Positions 723 through 17,504 of a stretch of 32,000 nt of DNA are shown here, piece after piece. Each line of letters starts with the position of its first letter. Position 1 is the stretch's first letter. The stretch comes from Promethearchaeia archaeon (GTDB lineage Archaea; Asgardarchaeota; Lokiarchaeia; Sigyniarchaeales; SOKP01), in contig JAHQWH010000016.1 of NCBI GenBank assembly GCA_029856105.1, forward strand, positions 24,580 through 56,579, written 5' to 3'. Position numbers and translations under genes: made by a program. The notes beneath the pieces are model-generated. The model saw only the letters and a program-made list of their open reading frames with translations. It did not search any database and was not told the DNA's origin.

Positions 723-2090
723 TTATTTTTGAGTTATTTGATCGTAAGCTTTTTCAAACCTCTCAACAGCAGATATAATATCTTCTGATGTTGCCCCAAT
801 AGCAGCGTTCAATACGATATATGGCGTTATATATTCAGTACTACATGTCCCAAATATGCTTTCTTCGGGATTATATACTCGTGGACCAGTGACTCTTAAG
901 TTATATAAAGCACCTCCTAAAGCGAATAACTGTTCTTTTTTCAAGTTATTTAAAGATACGGCAACAGCTACTGGATTAAACACATCGAGAATTTTTTCGT
1001 TGATTTTTTCGGCAACTCCTTTTAATTTACTTTCTAGTAATTTTCGATTATGTTGTTGTTCTTTTAAGAGTTTTTGGTACCCTTCTATTCCTAAAGATAA
1101 CATTGATATAAGAAAGTTCACAATTGGAGCCGCAGAAGCACGACCTGCGTAAGCTTGGCTGATTTTGGTTATAATTTCTTCGCTTGGAGATGCGATTATA
1201 GCTCCACCAACAGGAGTAAGAACATTTTTATCAGTTGATTGAATAATTGCATCCACTTTTCCAGCGTCGATACCAACTCGGATTAATTTCATCCATTCCG
1301 GACTTTGTACACCATAGGCGTTAATAACTATATGAACCAGATCGTTTTTTTTAGCAAACTTGCTAATCTCTTTAATATTGTCGTGTTCTCGAGGAGGAAA
1401 AAAGCTTGTTAAAGATATTACAGCAAAACAATCACTATCTAAACTAGCTTCAATGTCTTCGATCGGTATTCTAACTGCATCCCCAAAAATTTTCCCTTCA
1501 ACGGTTTTTATTCTCATTCCCATTAAATTAATTGCTTTTATTAGAGATTTGTGGTCAATTTGAGGAACAATTACAGTTCTTTTATTTATTAATTCTTTTT
1601 TATTCCAATTAGGTTTGAGAGCCCCTAGACATAAAGCTAAAGACATACCAGTGCATTGAGGGACGACTATTGCTTTCTTTATGTTTAACATTCCAAATTT
1701 TCTAAGGAAATTAAGAGCTAAATAATTACTGAGTTCATACATTATAGAACCTCCAGGAGCTTTTGGTTGAGGGGCTGTTAAGAATCCACTTCGTCCTATC
1801 CCGTGACAAAATCCACTTGAAGATTTTAAGTGTAAACTCGATGCAATTCTTGCTTCACGCTCTCCTACTCGAGAAGCTTTATCATCTTTGTCTGTATCCA
1901 TATTTGAAAGCATTTGAAGCAAAAATTCGATTTGACCTTCACTCCAAGGCTTTTGAGGGACAATTCTTTGCTCAAAAAGCGTTTTTATTGGTTTTAAGAA
2001 ATTATTTAAAACTAACTGCCCTCTATCTAACATATTTTGTGGAATTGATGTGCTCTTAAAATAATCAATAATTTTATTAAAGTCAAACAT
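723..2090 (-). CDS. spcS: O-phosphoseryl-tRNA(Sec) selenium transferase (SepSecS), PLP-dependent
   Basis: 455 aa. Near-collinear with my memory of human/archaeal SepSecS: VGEREARIAS, HGIGRSG...QPKAPGGS, NAYGVQS, the PLP-lysine motif QSTDKNVLTPVGGAII, and YAGRASAAP. tRNA-Sec lies immediately upstream. Confidence 0.92.
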   Translation of the reverse strand: MFDFNKIIDYFKSTSIPQNMLDRGQLVLNNFLKPIKTLFEQRIVPQKPWSEGQIEFLLQMLSNMDTDKDDKASRVGEREARIASSLHLKSSSGFCHGIGRSGFLTAPQPKAPGGSIMYELSNYLALNFLRKFGMLNIKKAIVVPQCTGMSLALCLGALKPNWNKKELINKRTVIVPQIDHKSLIKAINLMGMRIKTVEGKIFGDAVRIPIEDIEASLDSDCFAVISLTSFFPPREHDNIKEISKFAKKNDLVHIVINAYGVQSPEWMKLIRVGIDAGKVDAIIQSTDKNVLTPVGGAIIASPSEEIITKISQAYAGRASAAPIVNFLISMLSLGIEGYQKLLKEQQHNRKLLESKLKGVAEKINEKILDVFNPVAVAVSLNNLKKEQLFALGGALYNLRVTGPRVYNPEESIFGTCSTEYITPYIVLNAAIGATSEDIISAVERFEKAYDQITQK

Positions 2091-2142
2091 AAACTTCCCT
2101 TGAAATTACTTAAATTTTGAGTTTGGCGGCCCCCAGGGGGAT

Positions 2143-2172
2143 TTTCTCGAAAAGAACAAATCTCTTTCCATA
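2143..2172 (-). other. putative intron/insertion in the T loop of tRNA-Sec
   Basis: 37 nt lie between the T-stem strands instead of 7. Deleting 2143-2172 leaves UUCGAAU. The insert contains its own 7-bp hairpin, GGAAAGA (2169-2163) with UCUUUUC (2155-2149). Exact splice sites not determined. Confidence 0.45.
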
Positions 2173-2230
2173 TCGAACCCCTATCCCTCCGCAGGATAAC
2201 TGGGTTTGAAGCCCAGCGTCAGAGACCACT

Positions 2231-2262
2231 TATCGTATGAGATCGAAATGATCAAATCAAAT
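2231..2262 (-). other. putative intron/insertion in the D loop of tRNA-Sec (boundaries approximate)
   Basis: 39 nt lie between the D-stem strands. The 3'-most 7 nt (AGUGGUC) look like an ordinary D loop. The remaining ~32 nt contain a GAUC-AUUUC-GAUC hairpin. Confidence 0.35.
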
Positions 2263-2363: not shown

Positions 2364-3032
2364 TTATCCAATTATTCTATCTTTAATGTCTTCACAATTT
2401 ATTCGTCGACATCCAGGTGTCATTAATCCAAGATTATAGATTATGTCAATATAATTGACTATAATATGAGATGTCGCGCCAAATATGACGTATTTTTTAT
2501 TTTCTGCGGATCTGTAATTAAATTTACCTACTCCAATTAGGTCTCCTTTGAGATCGTAAGTCCTTTCTTTGTAGTTTTTTTTATTCGCAAAAAAAGTTAT
2601 TGGTATTTTTACAATTTCTTGTACTTCGTTTTCTTCTTTTACCATTCTTACATCTTTGTCGATATAGGCTACAATAGCGGTAATAATGAATCCTTTAGGT
2701 GTAAGATGGTCGTCAATAGCGCCCAAAACATTGACATTTTTTTTCGAAACTCCTAGTTCTTCTTCGAGTTCTCTTAACGCCGTATCTAAATAAGATTTAT
2801 CAAGTATTGGGTCGAATTTACCTCCGGGAAATGACATTTCTCCCGAATGTTTATCTGTTTTACTTTTGGTTCTTCGAATTAAAACTAAATCATACGGTTT
2901 ATCCTTGTATTGAAGAATTAGAAAAACGATGGCAGAATTAGTAAAATGTTCATGCGACATAGCCAAGCGATCTGAAGAGTTAAAGGCTTTCAGCTTCTTT
3001 CTAATAAAGGTGTCATCAAAAATGAAATTCAT
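2364..3032 (-). CDS. Nudix hydrolase, CoA pyrophosphatase-like (paralog 2)
   Basis: 222 aa. Nudix box GGKFDPILDKSYLDTALRELEEELGV, preceded by a CoA-pyrophosphatase-type motif LVLIRRTKSKTDKHSGEMSFPGG. Confidence 0.8.
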   Translation of the reverse strand: MNFIFDDTFIRKKLKAFNSSDRLAMSHEHFTNSAIVFLILQYKDKPYDLVLIRRTKSKTDKHSGEMSFPGGKFDPILDKSYLDTALRELEEELGVSKKNVNVLGAIDDHLTPKGFIITAIVAYIDKDVRMVKEENEVQEIVKIPITFFANKKNYKERTYDLKGDLIGVGKFNYRSAENKKYVIFGATSHIIVNYIDIIYNLGLMTPGCRRINCEDIKDRIIG

Positions 3033-3065
3033 AGGTATCAGTATTTTAGATAATGTATTAAATTA

Positions 3066-3776
3066 TTAAAATTTCTTAGTAATTTGGTTTCGATATTTGA
3101 TATACTCTTTTAAATCTTTTATTTTCTCAAGTTTAAATCGCTCCAATCCTAAATTTGAAAGAGAAAATCCATATAAGTCTTCTAGAAAAGTTACAATCAT
3201 ATAAGCTGTTGCTCCCCAAATAGTATATTTTTTGCCATTTTCTTTATTGATGTAATTAAAGTAAAATATTGGGAACTTATTGCCATCAATGTCTACAGCT
3301 TGTTCTCGAAATTTTTTTTTGTTTAAGAAAAAATCGATAGGAATTTTTAATATTTTCTGAACCTCTCTATCCTCTTTAATTAATTTTTGATTTTGATCAA
3401 TGATTGCTACAAATGGGGTGATAATATACTTCGTCATTGTAGGAAAATCGTCAAGACAACCTAGAATTTTAATATTTTTCCTTGGTACACCAATTTCTTC
3501 TTCAGTTTCTCTTAAAGCAGTGTCTTTTAAGGATTTATCGTTATTATCTTCGAATTTCCCCCCTGGAAACGACATTTCACCTCTATGGCTTGTTCCTCTA
3601 TTTGAACGATGAATTAATATTAATTCGTAGGGTTTTTCTTTGTATGGAACGATAGAAAAAAGCACTGCTGAACTTGTAAAAAAATTGTCTTTAAGAGATA
3701 CTCTCAAAGGCGAATCGCAGTCATAAAGTTTGCTCTTAATAAGATTTTCATCGAAAATTAAGTTCAAAGAATCCAT
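3066..3776 (-). CDS. Nudix hydrolase, CoA pyrophosphatase-like (paralog 1)
   Basis: 236 aa. LILIHRSNRGTSHRGEMSFPGGKFEDNNDKSLKDTALRETEEEIGV. Collinear with the neighbouring 222-aa protein over the full length. Confidence 0.8.
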   Translation of the reverse strand: MDSLNLIFDENLIKSKLYDCDSPLRVSLKDNFFTSSAVLFSIVPYKEKPYELILIHRSNRGTSHRGEMSFPGGKFEDNNDKSLKDTALRETEEEIGVPRKNIKILGCLDDFPTMTKYIITPFVAIIDQNQKLIKEDREVQKILKIPIDFFLNKKKFREQAVDIDGNKFPIFYFNYINKENGKKYTIWGATAYMIVTFLEDLYGFSLSNLGLERFKLEKIKDLKEYIKYRNQITKKF

Positions 3777-3850
3777 GAATTTTAGGAAAAATTTTAAGAT
3801 GGTAATTAATTTAAGATTATAATATTGAATCCTAATAAAATTTTTAGTAA

Positions 3851-4162
3851 GTGTTAAAATTGAAGTTACCTAAAGAACTTAGAGAGAAAGGAGACCTTAG
3901 CGCTACAGCAAGTAAGGGAAAAAGTTGTTCAGTGAAAGGCTGTGGAGAACTCGCTATAAGATCGCTTTCAGAAAATAAATGGAAAACTTACATTGAGAAA
4001 GCAAATTTAAAAATTATTGAAAACAGGCAGCATAAAATTTACCTCTGTAAAAAACATTATAAAGACGCGAATAAATATAGAAAATCCCAAGAAAAAGTAT
4101 ACCAGAAGAAGGGTTTTTTAGAAAATTCCGCTGCTCTAGGTAAAGAGAAACGTTGGGATTAA
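3851..4162 (+). CDS. hypothetical small basic protein with a putative Zn-binding C-x4-C...C-x2-H pattern
   Basis: 103 codons, GTG start directly after an in-frame TAA, no internal Met. Contains CSVKGC...(35 aa)...CKKH and is Lys-rich. No family recognised. Confidence 0.45.
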   Translation: MLKLKLPKELREKGDLSATASKGKSCSVKGCGELAIRSLSENKWKTYIEKANLKIIENRQHKIYLCKKHYKDANKYRKSQEKVYQKKGFLENSAALGKEKRWD

Positions 4163-4187
4163 CTGATACTCTTAACCTAAAACGTTT

Positions 4188-4313
4188 TTATGTAAAAAAA
4201 TTCATTTGCTCGTAAAGAGAATTAATTCTAAGATAATCGTTATTTATGATTCCTAGTGTTAGTAGAGACAAAGCGATAATAAAAATTATAAGACCAATTA
4301 GTTTTTTTCTCAT
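4188..4313 (-). CDS. possible 41-aa single-pass membrane peptide
   Basis: Hand translation gives MRKKLIGLIIFIIALSLLTLGIINNDYLRINSLYEQMNFFT*. It is below the ORF-track size cut-off and is supported only by ORF integrity and a hydrophobic segment. Confidence 0.25.
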   Translation of the reverse strand: MRKKLIGLIIFIIALSLLTLGIINNDYLRINSLYEQMNFFT

Positions 4314-4363
4314 GTTAATCAAATATTATAATATTTGAAATAAATTAAAAATTTAGGTTTATA

Positions 4364-5239
4364 TTATTTAGTAAGATTTACTAGAGTCTTAATTTTTATA
4401 TCAATTTTTTTAAGTTTTAAATCAAAATCTTTGCTTTTAGCTTTAAAATCGTCTTCAGAAATTTCTTTTGCTGAAAATCGTCCTTTGTTTAAGTTTCTCT
4501 CCGATTGGAGTTCGGCTTTTTCCATTTTTAATTCCTTAATCCAAATTTTCATTCCTTCTGTCAAGTCTTTTTTCTCCGTTTCGAAGTCCTTTTTTTCTTG
4601 GTTGTACTTTTCTCGTAGATTTTCAAACGATTCTTTATCGACTTTGTGTAATTTAAATTCTTTTGAAAGGTTTTTTAATTGAAAGATTTTCTTTTCAATA
4701 TCGTCTTGAATTCTCTGAACTATAAATGGTTTCTCTACTTTTTGCTCTAATTCGCCTTCTTTTTGTTTTAGTTCAGTTATTAAAGTTTTAATCGCTTCGA
4801 GTTTTATATTAACAGTTTTCTTAAATTCTGGATCTACATCGTATCTTGGATCTTTTACAGATTTTTGAAGTTCTTTTAGTTTTTCAATCAATAATTGTTT
4901 ATTTAATTGAGTATCATTATATTCTATGTTCAAGATCATCTGCTCCTTAACTTCAAACGGGAGAGGTTTCTCTACAATTTCTTTTTCGTCTTTTTTATCC
5001 TTTTTCTTTTTGCCTTTTTCTTCTGGTTTTTCTGATAATTCTTCGACATCTTCTTCTTTAATAGTTTCCTCCGCGGGTTCTTCCCTAAATTTTTTCTTGT
5101 CTTTAATGAATTCTTTAGCTTTTTCGACCTCGGTTTTTTCTGGCTTTTTCACGCTTGCTAGAACTGGCTTCCCACAGATTATACAGAATTTGTCATTCTC
5201 CTTTAAGGGATTGCCGCAATAAACACAGTATTTAGCCAT
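4364..5239 (-). CDS. N-terminal zinc-ribbon protein with a K/E-rich linker and long coiled-coil region
   Basis: 291 aa. YCVYCGNPLKENDKFCIICG (CxxC...CxxC), then an EEPAEETIKEEDVEELSEKPEEKGKKKKDKKDEKE tract, then heptad-like K/E/L-rich sequence. Confidence 0.7.
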   Translation of the reverse strand: MAKYCVYCGNPLKENDKFCIICGKPVLASVKKPEKTEVEKAKEFIKDKKKFREEPAEETIKEEDVEELSEKPEEKGKKKKDKKDEKEIVEKPLPFEVKEQMILNIEYNDTQLNKQLLIEKLKELQKSVKDPRYDVDPEFKKTVNIKLEAIKTLITELKQKEGELEQKVEKPFIVQRIQDDIEKKIFQLKNLSKEFKLHKVDKESFENLREKYNQEKKDFETEKKDLTEGMKIWIKELKMEKAELQSERNLNKGRFSAKEISEDDFKAKSKDFDLKLKKIDIKIKTLVNLTK

Positions 5240-5340
5240 TTAACTTTTCATTTCTCGGTTTGTTTTAAAATAAGATATAATAAAATCATATTACATTTAT
5301 AATTAAATTTTATTGGAGTCCAATAATTAAAATCGATACC

Positions 5341-5466
5341 AGCTTTAAAATTATGGTTTTATCTTTTAATATTTTTTACATTAAAAAAAATTAACTTTAA
5401 ATAACTATTTAGTCGCACCATAGATTTAATTGGTTTTTACTTGCTATTCAAATGCTAGAAATTGAG
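5341..5466 (+). repeat. copy A of a 126-nt promoter/leader/start-codon cassette (paralog of the selB upstream region)
   Basis: Gapless alignment to 7019-7144. I count 100/126 identical positions. Both edges are sharp. Confidence 0.85.
5396..5404 (+). promoter_or_regulatory. TATA-like box (TTTAAATAA) inside cassette copy A
   Basis: Sits at the same cassette offset (55) as the TATA-like box upstream of selB. About 50 nt upstream of the ATG at 5452. Confidence 0.4.
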
Positions 5467-5577
5467 CAATGGGTTAAAGAGAGTGAAGATAGATTTAAGT
5501 GTCCTCATTATTGAAAAGCAGTATCGGTATCAAGTAGAGTTTGTTATCATTGCGATGTTAAACTTTCAGGTTTATAA
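5452..5577 (+). CDS. candidate small ORF with an in-frame TGA (41 codons if UGA is decoded, 20 aa if it is a stop)
   Basis: ATG 5452, TGA 5512-5514, TAA 5575-5577. Translation: MLEIEQWVKESEDRFKCPHY[TGA]KAVSVSSRVCYHCDVKLSGL. It starts with the duplicated selB start context. No convincing SECIS seen. Confidence 0.3.
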
Positions 5578-5584
5578 AAATAAA

Positions 5585-5637
5585 AAGATGTAGATGAAAA
5601 ATCTCGGTTTCATGGATTTAGTTCAAATAAACATCTT
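5585..5637. terminator. bipartite stem-loop filling the convergent intergenic gap (possible bidirectional terminator)
   Basis: Outer stem is 7 bp, AAGATGT (5585-5591) with ACATCTT (5631-5637). Inner stem is 6 bp, ATGAAA (5594-5599) with TTTCAT (5608-5613), with an 8-nt loop. Confidence 0.4.
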
Positions 5638-6406
5638 AAGTTGGAAATAAGTGTTTCCTGCGACCTTCTGTTTTCACAAATATTAAATGATTTTTCAAAA
5701 GTTTGTCAACATGGTATTTTACTGAGTTTCTCTTCAAATTTAATTGATGGGCAATTTTGCTTGAATAAATCCCTGGTTGAGATTCAATCAAATCTAAGAT
5801 TTTTGTACTCTGTTTTGACTTAAGAAGAGACTTTATGGAATCTAAGTTTTGATCTTCATAATAAATTGGATAAAATATTGAATATTGTCCTAATTTTTCC
5901 TTTCTTATAATATTGAATTCAATTAATAAAGATAAATGCCATTGCAATTGCCCTCTATGTATTTTGCATTTTCTAATGAGATCGTTATGGTGAATTCCGG
6001 GTTCTTTAAGAATAGTATCTATTATTTTCTTACGAATTTCACTTTCAAAAATCTCATCAAACGATAAATTGTGGTTTTGGTAAATTTGAGCACTCTTTTT
6101 TTTACAATAATATTTGTAGTCATTTAGAGAAAGAACAGCGTCAATAGAGGCGATATATATCAAGTATGACGATAGTATAATTATGAGAATTAGGATTAAA
6201 TTTGGATTAAGTAATAAAAATATTATATCGAACTCATGTTGATCGTCTACAATTGGATAACCTAAATCTATTAAATTTTGACGTAGATTTATTAATATAA
6301 CTAAAAATACAGATATAAATGTGATTGGAAATAATAGGGAGTATTTAATTTTGGAAATTAGATTGGGGTTACATTCATTTATTTTTTTTTTTTGATTCAT
6401 CTTCAA
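5636..6406 (-). CDS. membrane-anchored protein with two winged-helix (ArsR/MarR-like) DNA-binding domains
   Basis: 256 aa. Two N-terminal hydrophobic segments (LLFPITFISVFLVILINL, LILILIIILSSYLIYIASI). Two wHTH-like units follow (IIDTILKEPGIHHNDLIRKCKIHRGQLQWHLSLLIEFNIIRKE and ILDLIESQPGIYSSKIAHQLNLKRNSVKYHVDKLLKNHLIFVK). Confidence 0.65.
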   Translation of the reverse strand: MKMNQKKKINECNPNLISKIKYSLLFPITFISVFLVILINLRQNLIDLGYPIVDDQHEFDIIFLLLNPNLILILIIILSSYLIYIASIDAVLSLNDYKYYCKKKSAQIYQNHNLSFDEIFESEIRKKIIDTILKEPGIHHNDLIRKCKIHRGQLQWHLSLLIEFNIIRKEKLGQYSIFYPIYYEDQNLDSIKSLLKSKQSTKILDLIESQPGIYSSKIAHQLNLKRNSVKYHVDKLLKNHLIFVKTEGRRKHLFPT

Positions 6407-6437
6407 TAATTTAATTTATTGATATTTACATAAAACT

Positions 6438-6851
6438 TTAGGTATTAATCATTCTGAAAGGTAGTCCAAAAAAAGTGCTACTACCAATTAGTTTCAATAT
6501 TTCTATTTGTTGATCAATTGTACAATAGTATATAACTAATTCCCCCTTTCCTTCACACCTCTCTTCCAAGGATACATGAATACAATCAGGATGAATTTTT
6601 TCAATAGCATCAATAATATCCTGATGATCATCTACAATTTGACGTGCTGTTTCTATATCTGGAAGAGTTTCGCAAGTGTGATACCTACCATAAAAAAAAG
6701 TATTAAATATATTAGTAGCAACAAAAGTTAGAGGAATTGCTAGAATAGAAATAATAAAGACTAGTATTATAATTAAACCAATTAACTTTTTTCCCTCTAT
6801 GAGTCTTTTAGAGTCACCATTATTTTGATAATTAAATGCACTTTTTCGCAT
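6438..6851 (-). CDS. hypothetical membrane-anchored protein with a Cys-containing extracytoplasmic domain
   Basis: 137 aa. One N-terminal TM segment (LIGLIIILVFIISILAIPLTFVA) and four Cys in the C-terminal domain. No family recognised. Confidence 0.55.
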   Translation of the reverse strand: MRKSAFNYQNNGDSKRLIEGKKLIGLIIILVFIISILAIPLTFVATNIFNTFFYGRYHTCETLPDIETARQIVDDHQDIIDAIEKIHPDCIHVSLEERCEGKGELVIYYCTIDQQIEILKLIGSSTFFGLPFRMINT

Positions 6852-7018
6852 GGGTTCTGTTCATCTATTGCTATCTTATAAGAAGAAATAAACCTATGCA
6901 ATTTTTAAATAAATTGGTCTACCTTTAGAACAATCAGCAAGTAGTGTTTTACAAACCTATACAGTAAATAAATCTGCTTCTCTTCCAATAATGAATCAAT
7001 GGGAACTCTTAAATAAAG

Positions 7019-7144
7019 AGCTTTAAAATTACATATTTATCTTTTAGTATTTTTTATATTAAAAGATATTAATTTTAAATAATTATTAAATTACATCATA
7101 GATTCATTTTATTTTTCCTTTTTATTTCAATGTTAAAAATTGAG
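7019..7144 (+). repeat. copy B of the 126-nt cassette (native selB promoter, leader and first five codons)
   Basis: See 5341-5466. Includes the selB ATG at 7130. Confidence 0.85.
7074..7082 (+). promoter_or_regulatory. TATA-like box (TTTAAATAA) upstream of selB
   Basis: A/T box about 50 nt upstream of the selB ATG. Conserved in the duplicated cassette. Confidence 0.45.
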
Positions 7145-8572
7145 AAGAAAATTCCCGTCCACATTGGTCTTTTTGGCCATATAGATTCCGGCAAGACGGC
7201 AGTAGTCGCTGTTTTAAGTGAGTTTATTTCAACTGCAGGAATTGACGCTCATCCTCAGAGCAAGGAAAGGGGAATTACAATAGATTTAGGTTTTACGAGT
7301 TTAATTTTAGAGGAATATTTGATCACCTTAGTAGATGGTCCTGGTCACGCCGATTTGATTAAAATTAGTGCTTCTTCAGTGGAGATTATTGATTGTGCTC
7401 TAATCGTAATTGATATAACTAAAGGCCCTCAGATTCAAACTGGAGAACATTTAATAATGATAGAATCGCTCGACATCAAAGATGTTATAGTAGTACTTAA
7501 CAAAATTGACTTATTTAAAGGAGATTTAGATGCAGAAGTTAAGAAAATTAGAGAATTTTTTAAATCGACCTCATATGGTTCGGATATACCTATTTTTTCG
7601 GTTTCTGCAAAAAATCAACTCGGATTTGAAGATTTAAAGAAAGGAATTTTAGAGAAAATTAAAGCTTTAGATATTAAAAGAAATTACGAAGGAAGCGTTA
7701 TTATCCCAATTGATCACCATTTTTTAATAAAGGGAAGAGGAGCGGTAATTACTGGTACGATATTGGAGGGGAGGTTAAAACCAAACCAGGATATAGATGT
7801 GATCCCGGTTAATACTTCAGGTAGAGTCAAAACTATTCAAATTTTTCATCAGAATGTTGATGAAGCTAAAGCAGGCGATAGAGTTGGAATAAATATAAAG
7901 GGATTAGATATTAAAAAGGTATATCGAGGTTGTTACGCTACAAATAACAAGAAAGCATTCGATTTTTGCGACCTAATTGATATTCAAGTAAATCAAAGTA
8001 AATTATTCAAACCTAAGACTCAATTTGGAACCCAAGTGCATGTTACAATAGGGATGTTCACAGTTACGGGAAATTTATTTCCATATTATGAAAATAATGG
8101 GAAAAAGATTCAATTAGAAAGTTCGGGTGATTTAAATACATACAATGCCTTTTTATGGTTAAACGAAAAGGTTTTTATTAATAAGGAAAGGAATACAATG
8201 CTTTTAAGTCGATTGGACCTTCCACCGACAACCCTAAGGATACTCGGTGCAGCAAAATTGATCGCAGTAATTAAAGACCCTCCAAAATTGTATAAGTTTA
8301 AACTTAAGAAAGGATATGTTCAAAACCCTGAACAGACTCAAGGGATCGTTTGTAGTGGTTTAGCCCAAAGCTACGAAGGAGCTAAAAAAATCATTGGTCG
8401 CAAATTGGAGCCCCCATTTACTAAAATTATTGATACTTTTGGAACGAAAGGATTAGTAATTGTAGGAATTGAAACAAAAGACCAAACCTTGAAAAAAGGA
8501 GACCCAATCGCTTTAAAAGAATTACGGAGTTTCACATTGAAATCTAAAAAAGATTTAAATTTGCTGAATTAA
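7130..8572 (+). CDS. selB: selenocysteine-specific translation elongation factor SelB (archaeal/eukaryal EFSec type)
   Basis: 480 aa. GTPase motifs GHIDSGKT (G1), DGPGH (G3), NKID (G4) and SAK (G5). EF-Tu-like domain II (GAVITGTILEGRLKPNQDIDVIP). C-terminal extension. Lies close to SepSecS and tRNA-Sec. Confidence 0.85.
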   Translation: MLKIEKKIPVHIGLFGHIDSGKTAVVAVLSEFISTAGIDAHPQSKERGITIDLGFTSLILEEYLITLVDGPGHADLIKISASSVEIIDCALIVIDITKGPQIQTGEHLIMIESLDIKDVIVVLNKIDLFKGDLDAEVKKIREFFKSTSYGSDIPIFSVSAKNQLGFEDLKKGILEKIKALDIKRNYEGSVIIPIDHHFLIKGRGAVITGTILEGRLKPNQDIDVIPVNTSGRVKTIQIFHQNVDEAKAGDRVGINIKGLDIKKVYRGCYATNNKKAFDFCDLIDIQVNQSKLFKPKTQFGTQVHVTIGMFTVTGNLFPYYENNGKKIQLESSGDLNTYNAFLWLNEKVFINKERNTMLLSRLDLPPTTLRILGAAKLIAVIKDPPKLYKFKLKKGYVQNPEQTQGIVCSGLAQSYEGAKKIIGRKLEPPFTKIIDTFGTKGLVIVGIETKDQTLKKGDPIALKELRSFTLKSKKDLNLLN

Positions 8573-8599: not shown

Positions 8600-9037
8600 A
8601 TGGAAAAAATTGAAACATCAGAAATTAATATCGATCCAGAAATATTAAGTCAAATTATGCAAAATTTAGAGAAGTTAGAAAGTTCTACAGACTTGGAGGG
8701 TTCTGCAATCGTATCAAAAACGGGACTGAGAATAGCTAGCTCTGAAACTGCCGATATTGTAGCAGATATTTATAGTGCGAGCCCTGCCACATTAATTTCA
8801 TTGGGAGAAAAAATTAGTCGGGGTTTGGGACAAGGAGATTTAAGAGAAATAGTAATTAGAGGGGTAAAAGGTTATACTATTATTTTAGTTGGAGATTCAG
8901 ACAATAAATTCATGCTATTTACGAATTGTAGTAAAGGCTATAAGCTTGGCTATTATTTCCATAAAATTCGTAAATCCTTTAAAGAAATGGAGCCCGTTCT
9001 TAAGAAAATTGAATCAAAAGGTTTACATACTTCATAA
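8600..9037 (+). CDS. Roadblock/LC7 (MglB-like) domain protein
   Basis: 145 aa. LEGSAIVSKTGLRIASS...SLGEKISRGLGQGDLREIVIRGVKGYTIILVGD fits the Roadblock/LC7 pattern. A GAGGT sequence lies about 8 nt upstream of the ATG, and the gene starts 27 nt after the selB stop. Confidence 0.7.
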   Translation: MEKIETSEINIDPEILSQIMQNLEKLESSTDLEGSAIVSKTGLRIASSETADIVADIYSASPATLISLGEKISRGLGQGDLREIVIRGVKGYTIILVGDSDNKFMLFTNCSKGYKLGYYFHKIRKSFKEMEPVLKKIESKGLHTS

Positions 9038-17481: not shown

Positions 17482-17504
17482 ACTTTTTAACCTTATGATC
17501 TTAA

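What the first reader, a model, noticed from the sequence alone, without database searches (positions are those of the whole stretch)
5341..7144. Gapless 126-nt duplication of the selB promoter, leader and first five codons, placed in front of a different tiny ORF
Positions 5341-5466 and 7019-7144 align without any indel. I count 100 of 126 identical positions, far above what two A/T-rich intergenic stretches should give.

Both edges are sharp. The 10 nt upstream (5331-5340 vs 7009-7018) share 1/10 positions, and identity is lost right after ...ATTGAG.

The cassette carries an A/T box CTTTAAAATTA at its 5' edge and a TATA-like TTTAAATAA at offset 55. It also carries a ~25-nt leader, the ATG, and codons 2-5 (M-L-[E/K]-I-E).

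Copy B is the native 5' end of selB. Copy A heads the 41-codon TGA-containing ORF. A conserved block this long is more than a core archaeal promoter needs. It suggests a shared cis-regulatory module or 5' leader that co-regulates selB and the small ORF, or a recent promoter-capture event.
Basis: seen in the sequence. Interest (0 to 1): 0.75.

Follow-up and report, generated by a model that had tools for sequence, protein, structure and literature searches.

The report
Duplicated selB promoter bordering an imported island
The 126-base repeat is real. It is a second, older copy of the selB promoter and start codon at the edge of a small accessory gene island that this Lokiarchaeal lineage acquired upstream of selB. 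The tiny "TGA-containing" gene it heads is a broken zinc-ribbon gene, not a selenoprotein.

Summary
Window 5341-5466 and 7019-7144 match at 100/126 positions without gaps. Typical per-offset maxima across the window are 53.5±3.5, and there is no third copy.

The window comes from a Promethearchaeota (Lokiarchaeal) genome. Five genomes with the closest selB (87-96% nt) carry only one cassette. They lack window ~5330-7050. This segment is therefore an accessory island holding copy A, a tiny ORF, a membrane wHTH regulator and a 137-aa protein.

A distant lineage (selB 76% nt) carries the same island at 91% identity, with only the first 57 nt of the left copy. The window's selB is nested inside the island-free clade, so the island was most likely imported by recombination.

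- **Copy B:** its last ~90 nt are the native selB promoter.
- **Copy A:** it is closer to the distant lineage's selB promoter (87%) than to copy B (79%).
- **The small ORF:** in two relatives copy A heads an intact 43-aa CPHCG...CYHC zinc-ribbon ORF. In the window that ORF has C20Y, Gly21→TGA and a 6-nt deletion.
- **Sec signals:** no Loki-type SECIS follows the ORF, and the leaders share no structure.

A Sec link is not supported, and co-regulation remains untested. Interest is low to moderate.

The parts
5341..5466 (+). Copy A of the cassette: upstream element, TATA box, about 26-nt leader, ATG and first 5 codons (MLEIE). It is the divergent, island-borne copy.
   Evidence: It matches the group-2 selB cassette at 109/125 and its neighbour copy B at 100/126.
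7019..7144 (+). Copy B: the working selB promoter, leader and first 5 codons (MLKIE). It is a hybrid. Offsets 1-38 occur only in island-bearing genomes. Offsets 39-126 are the native sequence.
   Evidence: Offsets 39-126 match island-free relatives at 87/88; offsets 1-38 match the group-2 cassette at 36/37 and island-free L001 at only 20/37.
5396..5403 (+). TATA-like box TTTAAATA of copy A, 56 nt before the ATG at 5452.
   Evidence: Read from the sequence. Archaeal promoter function is inferred and the transcription start is not mapped.
7074..7081 (+). TATA-like box TTTAAATA of copy B, 56 nt before the selB ATG at 7130.
   Evidence: Read from the sequence. It is conserved in all selB loci examined.
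5370..5390 (+). A/T palindrome TATTTTTTA-N3-TAAAAAA(T)A just upstream of the TATA box in copy A. It is a possible operator.
   Evidence: one mismatch to the palindrome. The only other close match in the window is in copy B. The count is not significant on its own (8 of 100 shuffles reach it).
7048..7068 (+). The same palindrome in copy B.
5452..5577 (+). Decayed tiny zinc-ribbon ORF (pseudogene). Codons 1-5 come from the cassette. TAT at 5509-5511 replaces a Cys codon. TGA at 5512-5514 replaces a Gly codon. A 6-nt deletion lies between 5541 and 5542.
   Evidence: L023 and L035 encode an intact 43-aa M[L/I]KIEQ[G/W]VKESEDR[S/F][K/N]CPHCGKAVSVSSRVSKCYHCDVKLSGL.
5402..5570 (+). Segment running from about the TATA box of copy A to the end of the small ORF. 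It is absent from group-2 loci and L022. It is bounded by the microhomology TTTA(A/T)AAATAA.
5585..5637 (+). Hairpin between the convergent small ORF and the wHTH gene. It is not a SECIS.
   Evidence: z-score 0.03. It is conserved in group 2, which lacks the small ORF. It does not fit the lokiSECIS rules.
5636..6406 (-). Island gene: a 256-aa protein with a hydrophobic N-terminal half and two winged-helix domains.
   Evidence: Pfam HTH_HVO_0163_N at 1e-19 and HTH_24 at 5e-12. Homologues reach 99% identity.
6438..6851 (-). Island gene: a 137-aa protein with no family assignment. It always lies next to the wHTH gene.
5330..7050 (.). Extent of the accessory island relative to island-free relatives. 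They carry about 45 unrelated nt at this position.
5616..6945 (.). Core two-gene module. It also occurs in a different genomic context in L019 (81% nt identity) without the cassette.
7130..8572 (+). selB (archaeal EFSec), 480 aa.
   Evidence: Pfam GTP_EFTU, GTP_EFTU_D2 and aSelB_III.
4364..5239 (-). Left-flank gene, 291 aa, with an N-terminal zinc ribbon. It is conserved next to selB in island-free genomes.

Best explanation
The two 126-nt copies are the borders of a small accessory island of about 1.7 kb. The island sits between the 291-aa zinc-ribbon gene and selB in some Promethearchaeota (Lokiarchaeal) lineages.

The island carries its own older copy of the selB 5' end: upstream element, TATA box, leader, ATG and five codons. 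That copy serves as promoter and start for a tiny 43-aa zinc-ribbon ORF. The ORF is thus a chimera of 5 selB codons and 38 unrelated codons.

This window's lineage belongs to an otherwise island-free clade. It most likely gained the island by homologous recombination with an island-bearing relative. The left crossover fell in the conserved intergenic flank (about 5290-5329). The right crossover fell inside the selB cassette (about 7048-7063).

As a result selB keeps its native core promoter but gains the island's upstream 38 nt. Copy A is a foreign, diverged paralogue.

In this window the small ORF is already dead (Cys20Tyr, Gly21stop = the TGA, and a 6-nt deletion). In other lineages it has been deleted outright. 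The repeat therefore reflects island architecture and 5'-end duplication, not selenocysteine biology.

Shown here: the repeat, the presence/absence polymorphism, the identity patterns and the ORF lesions. Inferred: the recombination route, promoter activity of both copies and the origin of the first duplication.
For: The repeat is real and unique in the window.

Five genomes have a single cassette and lack window ~5330-7050. Their selB is 87-96% nt identical to the window's, and their alignment is colinear on both sides.

In the selB NJ tree the window is sister to island-free L001 (96.1% nt) and nested among island-free genomes. Group 2 selB is 76% identical. The island module is nevertheless 91% identical to group 2 while the flanks are 76-78% identical.

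Copy B offsets 39-126 match island-free genomes at 87/88. Copy B offsets 1-38 match the group-2 cassette at 36/37. Copy A matches the group-2 selB cassette at 109/125 and copy B at 100/126.

Group 2 and L022 have only 57 nt of the left copy. L020 and L021 have only about 14-17 nt.

Intact 43-aa CPHCG...CYHC ORFs follow copy A in L023 and L035. The window reads TAT TGA where they read TGT GGA, and it also has a 6-nt deletion.

No lokiSECIS-like element lies on the + strand downstream of the ORF, and Rfam finds nothing.

A scan of JGI metagenome contigs with an upstream-element pattern found true matches only at selB loci (L029, L030). The other matches were unrelated A/T-rich DNA.
Against: Island-free genomes are not the clean reciprocal of the insertion. 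They carry about 45 unrelated nt where the island and cassette offsets 1-38 would sit. The exact ancestral site is therefore uncertain.

Loss of the island in the island-free clade, or spread of an empty allele by recombination, cannot be formally excluded.

Three cassette types give only an unrooted comparison. The direction and date of the original duplication are unresolved.

The 104 nt unique to the small ORF have no detectable source.

L020 shows an inverted arrangement that I cannot explain.

No transcription data exist, so promoter activity of either copy is inferred from sequence alone.

The complete source genome could not be searched for further copies.
Confidence: 0.7

Rival explanations
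1. The cassette is a shared cis-regulatory module. Its upstream part (offsets 1-57, with the palindrome TATTTTTTA-N3-TAAAAAATA abutting the TATA box) would be an operator, perhaps bound by the island's own membrane-anchored wHTH protein. That would place selB and the island-border gene under common control. On this view the repeat is kept by selection.
For: Offsets 1-57 are present on both island borders in every island-bearing lineage, even where the rest of copy A is deleted. In the selB-proximal copy, offsets 1-38 match between the window and group 2 at 36/37. The spacer just upstream matches at only about 75-85% and offsets 58-126 at 55/69. This suggests constraint. The palindrome occurs in both copies with one mismatch. 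A DNA-binding protein is encoded in the island.
Against: Island-free relatives lack offsets 1-38 yet keep an intact selB with the same core promoter, so the element is not needed for selB. The palindrome count is not significant. The module in L019 has no cassette nearby. The left copy of the element is less conserved (about 84%). The co-regulated partner ORF is dead or deleted in most lineages. No binding or expression data exist.
Confidence: 0.15
2. The repeats are attL/attR-like scars or a long target-site duplication. They would have been made by a mobile element that inserts site-specifically into the selB 5' end, carrying a copy of the target so that selB is restored.
For: Direct repeats flank a block that is present or absent among close relatives. 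The block is more conserved than its flanks. The core module occurs in a second context (L019). The left junction varies between lineages, and L020 joins selB codon 11 to the other end of the module. This could mean repeated insertions at one hotspot.
Against: The island encodes no integrase, transposase or relaxase. Pfam, PHROGs and PADLOC give only generic wHTH hits. There are no terminal inverted repeats. The repeats are only 79% identical and have no identical core. The empty site is not a clean attB. L019 shows no flanking repeats.
Confidence: 0.1
3. The small ORF is a new selenoprotein. Its TGA would encode Sec in a C-x3-U motif, and it would be co-expressed with selB from the duplicated promoter.
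For: The ORF has an in-frame TGA, lies next to selB and shares its promoter. Reading through the TGA restores a zinc-ribbon-like sequence (Pfam Zn_ribbon_3, E 0.005 with U replaced by C).
Against: The TGA aligns with Gly (GGA), not Cys, in two intact orthologues, and the neighbouring ligand Cys is lost. The same allele carries a 6-nt deletion. No AUGA / 9-bp stem / A-rich 11-nt loop / GA element lies on the + strand between the ORF and position 17495. The 3' hairpin has a z-score of 0.03 and persists where the ORF is absent. Rfam finds nothing.
Confidence: 0.02
4. The match is a chance similarity between two A/T-rich intergenic regions.
For: The region is only 27-29% G+C.
Against: The match is 100/126, against a background of 53.5 ± 3.5. 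The BLASTN E-value is 1e-27. The homology is reproduced in other genomes.
Confidence: 0.01

Closest known systems
Chimeric or new genes formed by duplication of a neighbouring gene's promoter and 5' end (promoter capture, 5'-end segmental duplication)
   Same: A second copy of the promoter, leader, ATG and first five codons of selB is fused to unrelated coding sequence. Relatives carry this as an intact 43-codon ORF.
   Different: The duplicate sits at the border of a laterally exchanged island rather than arising in place in this genome. The fused ORF is an orphan zinc ribbon with no detectable parent. It is decaying or deleted in most lineages.
Genomic islets or flexible indel islands exchanged by homologous recombination between related strains
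   Same: The block is present or absent among close relatives. It is more conserved than its flanks (91% vs 77%). Its ends lie in sequences shared by donor and recipient.
   Different: The island is very small, with two or three genes. It lies directly in the promoter of a translation factor gene. One recombination end falls inside a duplicated promoter.
Integrative elements that carry a copy of the target gene's end (attP overlapping a tRNA or protein gene)
   Same: Direct repeats include part of the target gene, and the target gene stays intact after insertion.
   Different: There is no recombinase. The repeats are diverged (79%). There is no clean empty site.
Lokiarchaeal selenoprotein genes with a eukaryote-like SECIS (Mariotti et al. 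2016, PMC4989117)
   Same: Same organism group. The window holds selB, SepSecS and an intron-bearing tRNA-Sec candidate.
   Different: The small ORF has no SECIS, and its TGA replaces a Gly codon.

Membership tests
Selenoprotein gene (UGA = Sec) of Lokiarchaeia | The in-frame UGA aligns with Sec or Cys in homologues | tested here: not met
   The TGA at 5512-5514 aligns with GGA (Gly) in L023 and L035. The preceding Cys codon TGT is TAT in the window.
Selenoprotein gene (UGA = Sec) of Lokiarchaeia | lokiSECIS in the 3' UTR: AUGA, 9-bp stem, 11-nt loop starting with A's and ending in G, then GA (PMC4989117) | tested here: not met
   A pattern and pairing scan of both strands finds no candidate on the + strand between 5452 and 17495. 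The 5585-5637 hairpin has a 5-bp stem, a non-A loop and AG after the stem. Rfam gives no hit.
Zinc-ribbon small protein (CPxCG ... CxxC) | Four Cys ligands in two knuckles within one open frame | tested here: not met
   The window has CPHY-stop ... CYHC. Relatives have CPHCG ... CYHC intact. With the TGA read as Cys, the window ORF scores 16.7 bits on Pfam Zn_ribbon_3, below the cutoff of 27. The window copy is therefore a pseudogene of such a protein.
Archaeal selB / EFSec | EF-Tu GTPase domain, domain 2 and archaeal SelB domain III | tested here: met
   PF00009 at 2e-33, PF03144 at 7e-15 and PF21440 (aSelB_III) at 1.6e-10, all above their cutoffs.
Archaeal core promoter (BRE/TATA about 26 nt upstream of the TSS) | TATA box TTTAWATA at the proper distance from a mapped transcription start | not testable with these tools
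   TTTAAATA lies 56 nt before each ATG and is conserved in all selB loci. No transcript data are available.
Integrative mobile element with att duplication | Element-encoded integrase or recombinase | tested here: not met
   The island ORFs give only wHTH domains or no family in Pfam, PHROGs and PADLOC.
Integrative mobile element with att duplication | Identical core in both repeats and a clean empty site in uninserted genomes | tested here: not met
   The repeats are 79% identical. The longest exact run visible in the alignment is 15 nt, at the 5' edge. Island-free genomes carry 45 unrelated nt in place of cassette offsets 1-38.
Transposon with target-site duplication | Terminal inverted repeats and a transposase | tested here: not met
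   No inverted repeat pairs the island ends. No transposase is present.
Structured 5' leader / riboregulator | A stable, conserved secondary structure shared by the copies | tested here: not met
   The selB leaders of the window and L011 fold no better than shuffles (z 0.01 and 0.49). The copy A fold (z -1.7) pairs with A-specific coding sequence. The selB-like fragment in the L020 contig lacks about 30 nt of the leader.
Dispersed repeat / regulon-wide motif | Further copies upstream of other genes | tested here: inconclusive
   There is no third copy in the 32-kb window. The JGI metagenome scan with an upstream-element pattern found true matches only at selB loci. The complete source genome could not be searched.

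The most novel reading that the evidence does not exclude
The upstream 57 nt of the cassette always travels with the island and is nearly invariant in front of selB. It could be an operator through which the island's membrane-anchored double-wHTH protein takes control of selB transcription. In that case a small mobile regulatory islet would rewire expression of the selenocysteine elongation factor in Asgard archaea.
Probability: 0.1. Interest if true: 0.6.

Novelty: new member of a known kind. Interest (0 to 1): 0.25.

Why it matters
The result removes a tempting false lead: a new tiny selenoprotein co-regulated with selB in an Asgard archaeon. It also shows why an in-frame TGA next to Sec machinery should be checked against orthologues and for a SECIS before it is interpreted.

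On the positive side, it documents a concrete case of flexible-genome dynamics in Lokiarchaeia. A two- to three-gene islet is exchanged between lineages whose selB genes differ by about 24%. It is inserted in the promoter of an essential recoding factor. Its border shows the birth and decay of a chimeric micro-gene built on a duplicated promoter and start codon.

If the conserved upstream element proved to be an operator for the island's regulator, it would give a first handle on selB regulation in Asgard archaea.

Tried and rejected
- **Rfam.** I searched the whole window at gathering threshold and the locus at E≤10. Nothing was found at the locus.
- **SECIS.** I folded the 3' region of the small ORF. 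I also wrote a lokiSECIS scanner from the rules in PMC4989117. No candidate appeared.
- **Homologues of the 43-aa ORF.** The word-indexed search of 5.8 billion proteins found only the query itself. The full HMMER scan of 1.8 billion representatives found only weak Cys-repeat hits. tblastn and blastn against all fetched loci found it only in the window, L023 and L035 (L035 seen).
- **Further cassette copies.** nhmmer and BLASTN in the window found none. A degenerate 29-nt pattern was scanned against metagenome and viral contigs. Eight of ten metagenome hits and the one viral hit were unrelated A/T-rich DNA.
- **Mobile-element signatures.** PHROGs and PADLOC gave only generic wHTH similarity. 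No flanking repeats surround the module in L019.
- **Leader RNA structure.** None is shared between the copies.
- **The palindrome as a statistically supported motif.** It is not significant.
- **Direction of the original duplication.** Three-way distances among the cassettes are uninformative without a root.
- **L020's inverted arrangement.** I could not decide between a real rearrangement and an assembly chimera.
- **Exact-match lookup of the window's wHTH protein.** It is not on record.
Full report
**1. The observation**

The repeat finder reports window 5341-5466 and 7019-7144 as a gapless 126-nt pair at 79% identity. My own count is 100/126.

I compared every pair of 126-nt windows in the 32-kb sequence. 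The best match per offset averages 53.5 ± 3.5. The only other outlier scores 84/126 and joins two paralogous NUDIX genes. BLASTN gives E = 1e-27 between the copies. An nhmmer profile of the two copies finds no third copy in the window.

Identity drops to background in the 60 nt upstream and immediately after ...ATTGAG. Each copy holds TTTAAATA (5396-5403 and 7074-7081), then 48 nt, then the ATG (5452 and 7130) and four more codons.

**2. What the genes are**

- **7130-8572 (+)** is archaeal SelB/EFSec, with GTP_EFTU, D2 and aSelB_III domains.
- **5452-5577 (+)**, the ORF behind copy A, reads MLEIEQWVKESEDRFKCPHY-TGA-KAVSVSSRVCYHCDVKLSGL.
- **5636-6406 (-)** lies between the copies. It encodes a 256-aa protein with a hydrophobic N-terminal half and two winged-helix domains (HTH_HVO_0163_N 1e-19, HTH_24 5e-12).
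- **6438-6851 (-)** also lies between the copies. It encodes a 137-aa protein with no family.
- **4364-5239 (-)**, to the left, encodes a 291-aa protein with an N-terminal zinc ribbon.

**3. Relatives show that the repeat borders an indel**

A scan of one genome per species found selB loci in Promethearchaeota (Lokiarchaeal) MAGs at 89-96% amino-acid identity.

In five of them (L001-L004 and L006, "group 1"), window 3001-5466 and window 7023 onward both align to the same single cassette. Everything in between is absent. The multiple alignment gives three further points:

- The last ~90 nt of copy B match the single cassette of these genomes at 87/88 positions.
- Copy A is the divergent copy.
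- The first ~38 nt of both copies (AGCTTTAAAATTA....TTTATCTTTTA.TATTTTTTA) do not occur in group 1. Those genomes carry about 45 unrelated nt there.

**4. Other lineages carry the island**

Homologues of the wHTH protein led to contigs with the same synteny: 291-aa gene, wHTH, 137-aa gene, selB (L011-L018, L029, L030, "group 2").

Their flanks, including selB, are only 76-78% identical to the window. The two-gene module (window 5571-6950) is 91% identical. Group 2 has a full cassette in front of selB but only the first 57 nt of the left copy. Window 5402-5570, which runs from the TATA box to the end of the small ORF, is missing. That segment is bounded by the microhomology TTTA(A/T)AAATAA.

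Other contigs add variants:

- **L022:** its island and selB 5' end are 95.8% identical to the window overall, and selB's first 404 nt are 97% identical. It has the native-type selB cassette plus the same 57-nt left remnant.
- **L020 and L021:** they retain only about 14-17 nt of the left copy.
- **L019:** it holds the two-gene core (window 5616-6945, 81% identity) in an unrelated context, with no cassette and no flanking repeats.

**5. Direction of the event**

In a neighbour-joining tree of selB, the window is sister to island-free L001 (96.1% nt). It is nested among the island-free genomes, with group 2 far outside at 76%.

All island-free genomes share the same 45-nt filler (L003 has a further internal deletion). 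One gain in the window's lineage is therefore more parsimonious than several identical losses. The module's excess similarity to group 2 points the same way.

The mosaic of copy B fits import by homologous recombination, with the right crossover inside the cassette at about 7048-7063. Offsets 1-38 match the group-2 cassette at 36/37. Offsets 39-126 match group 1 at 87/88. Two informative sites in the left intergenic flank suggest the left crossover lies near 5290-5329. This route is inferred, not demonstrated.

**6. Copy A is not a recent copy of copy B**

| Comparison (full 126 nt) | Identity |
|---|---|
| Copy A vs group-2 selB cassette | 109/125 |
| Copy A vs copy B | 100/126 |
| Copy B vs group-2 selB cassette | 108/125 |

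The duplication therefore predates, or arose outside, this lineage. With three cassette types the comparison is unrooted, so I cannot say where or when the first duplication happened. The source of the 104 nt unique to the small ORF is also unknown. They occur only in the window, L023 and L035 (L035 seen).

**7. The small ORF**

L023 (wHTH protein 94% identical to the window's) and L035 (99%) carry a full copy A followed by intact 43-codon ORFs. These encode M[L/I]KIEQ[G/W]VKESEDR[S/F][K/N]CPHCGKAVSVSSRVSKCYHCDVKLSGL, a canonical two-knuckle zinc ribbon.

Where they read TGT GGA (Cys-Gly), the window reads TAT TGA. The window also lacks six nt (Ser-Lys). The TGA is thus a nonsense mutation beside a lost zinc ligand.

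The Loki SECIS is described as AUGA, a 9-bp stem, an 11-nt loop that begins with A's and ends in G, then GA (PMC4989117). A scan for this architecture finds no candidate on the + strand between the ORF and position 17495.

The hairpin at 5585-5637 is no more stable than shuffled sequence. It is also retained in group 2, where the ORF is absent. Rfam finds nothing at the locus.

The 43-aa protein is an orphan. Between L023 and L035 there are four non-synonymous changes and one synonymous change. This gives no sign of strong constraint.

**8. Regulatory reading**

The leaders of the selB copies do not fold better than shuffles. The fold of copy A's leader depends on A-specific coding sequence. 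The selB-like fragment in the L020 contig lacks about 30 nt of the leader. A shared leader RNA is therefore not supported.

The upstream 57 nt remains intriguing for four reasons:

- It is present on both island borders wherever the island occurs.
- It is nearly invariant in front of selB across lineages whose neighbouring spacer is about 75-85% identical.
- It contains a 9-nt-arm A/T palindrome abutting the TATA box in both copies.
- The island encodes a DNA-binding protein.

Against this, island-free genomes do without the element. The palindrome is not statistically significant. No binding or expression data exist. I give this reading 0.15 as a rival explanation and 0.1 in its strongest form, where the island's own wHTH protein controls selB.

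**9. Mobile-element reading**

No recombinase or transposase is encoded. There are no terminal inverted repeats. The repeats have no identical core, and the empty site is not clean. I keep a low probability for this reading. The varied left junctions and the odd L020 contig could reflect repeated events at a hotspot.

**10. Dispersal**

A degenerate pattern of the upstream element was scanned against JGI metagenome contigs. It returned only two true matches, both at selB loci. The remaining hits were unrelated A/T-rich DNA, and the single viral-contig hit was likewise unrelated. The full source genome could not be searched, so dispersal is unlikely but not excluded.

**11. Verdict**

The repeat is real. 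It reflects an old duplication of the selB promoter and start codon. The copy heads a tiny zinc-ribbon micro-gene at the border of a small, laterally exchanged accessory island. In this window the micro-gene is a pseudogene and its TGA is a nonsense codon. The finding is an instructive but ordinary piece of flexible-genome architecture. It is a new instance of a known kind of event.

Noticed in passing
window 2128-2244 (-): A tRNA-Sec candidate (Rfam RF01852, 28 bits, below the gathering score of 47). Its anticodon loop is CUUCAAA. It has a 31-nt insertion in the T-loop, as described for Lokiarchaeal tRNASec (PMC4989117). ARAGORN missed it. The acceptor stem aligns poorly.
   Followed up: partly
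window 723-2090 (-), 2128-2244 (-), 7130-8572 (+): SepSecS (PF05889 on the syntenic 455-aa gene in L011 and L015), the tRNA-Sec candidate and selB lie within 8 kb. This is a loose Sec-machinery cluster. In the original Loki assembly SecS was reported on a different contig from EFsec.
   Followed up: partly
window 2710-2835 vs 3448-3573: This is the second-best 126-nt self-match in the window (84/126). It lies in the two tandem NUDIX genes (2364-3032 and 3066-3776, minus strand), which are evidently paralogues.
   Followed up: no
L020 1-277 and 1574-1766: The contig carries a 193-nt inverted duplicate (94% identity) of the left flank plus cassette plus 11 selB-like codons (MKEIEKKVPIH). It is joined at the microhomology CCAATT to the opposite end of the two-gene module. 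It may be a real rearrangement or an assembly chimera.
   Followed up: partly
L011 about 5170-5430 (and L012, L013, L015, L016, L030), corresponding to window ~6950: Group-2 islands hold about 190 extra nt between the 137-aa gene and the selB cassette. In L011-L013 a 43-47-aa ORF is called there (in L011, MKEKQINLLYRFANHNDWVLFLDERYYLNIDLASLGGSTTFSR). The stretch is absent from the window.
   Followed up: no
window 8600-9037 (+): A Roadblock/LC7-domain protein (PF03259) lies immediately downstream of selB and is syntenic in all related loci. [quoted passage not shown] I did not check whether that is this gene.
   Followed up: no
window 5260-5340: The intergenic flank left of copy A (…ATTGGAGTCCAATAATTA) is 90-97% identical even to group 2, whose coding flanks are about 77% identical. 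It is probably the conserved promoter region of the 291-aa gene, or it may be part of the recombination tract.
   Followed up: no
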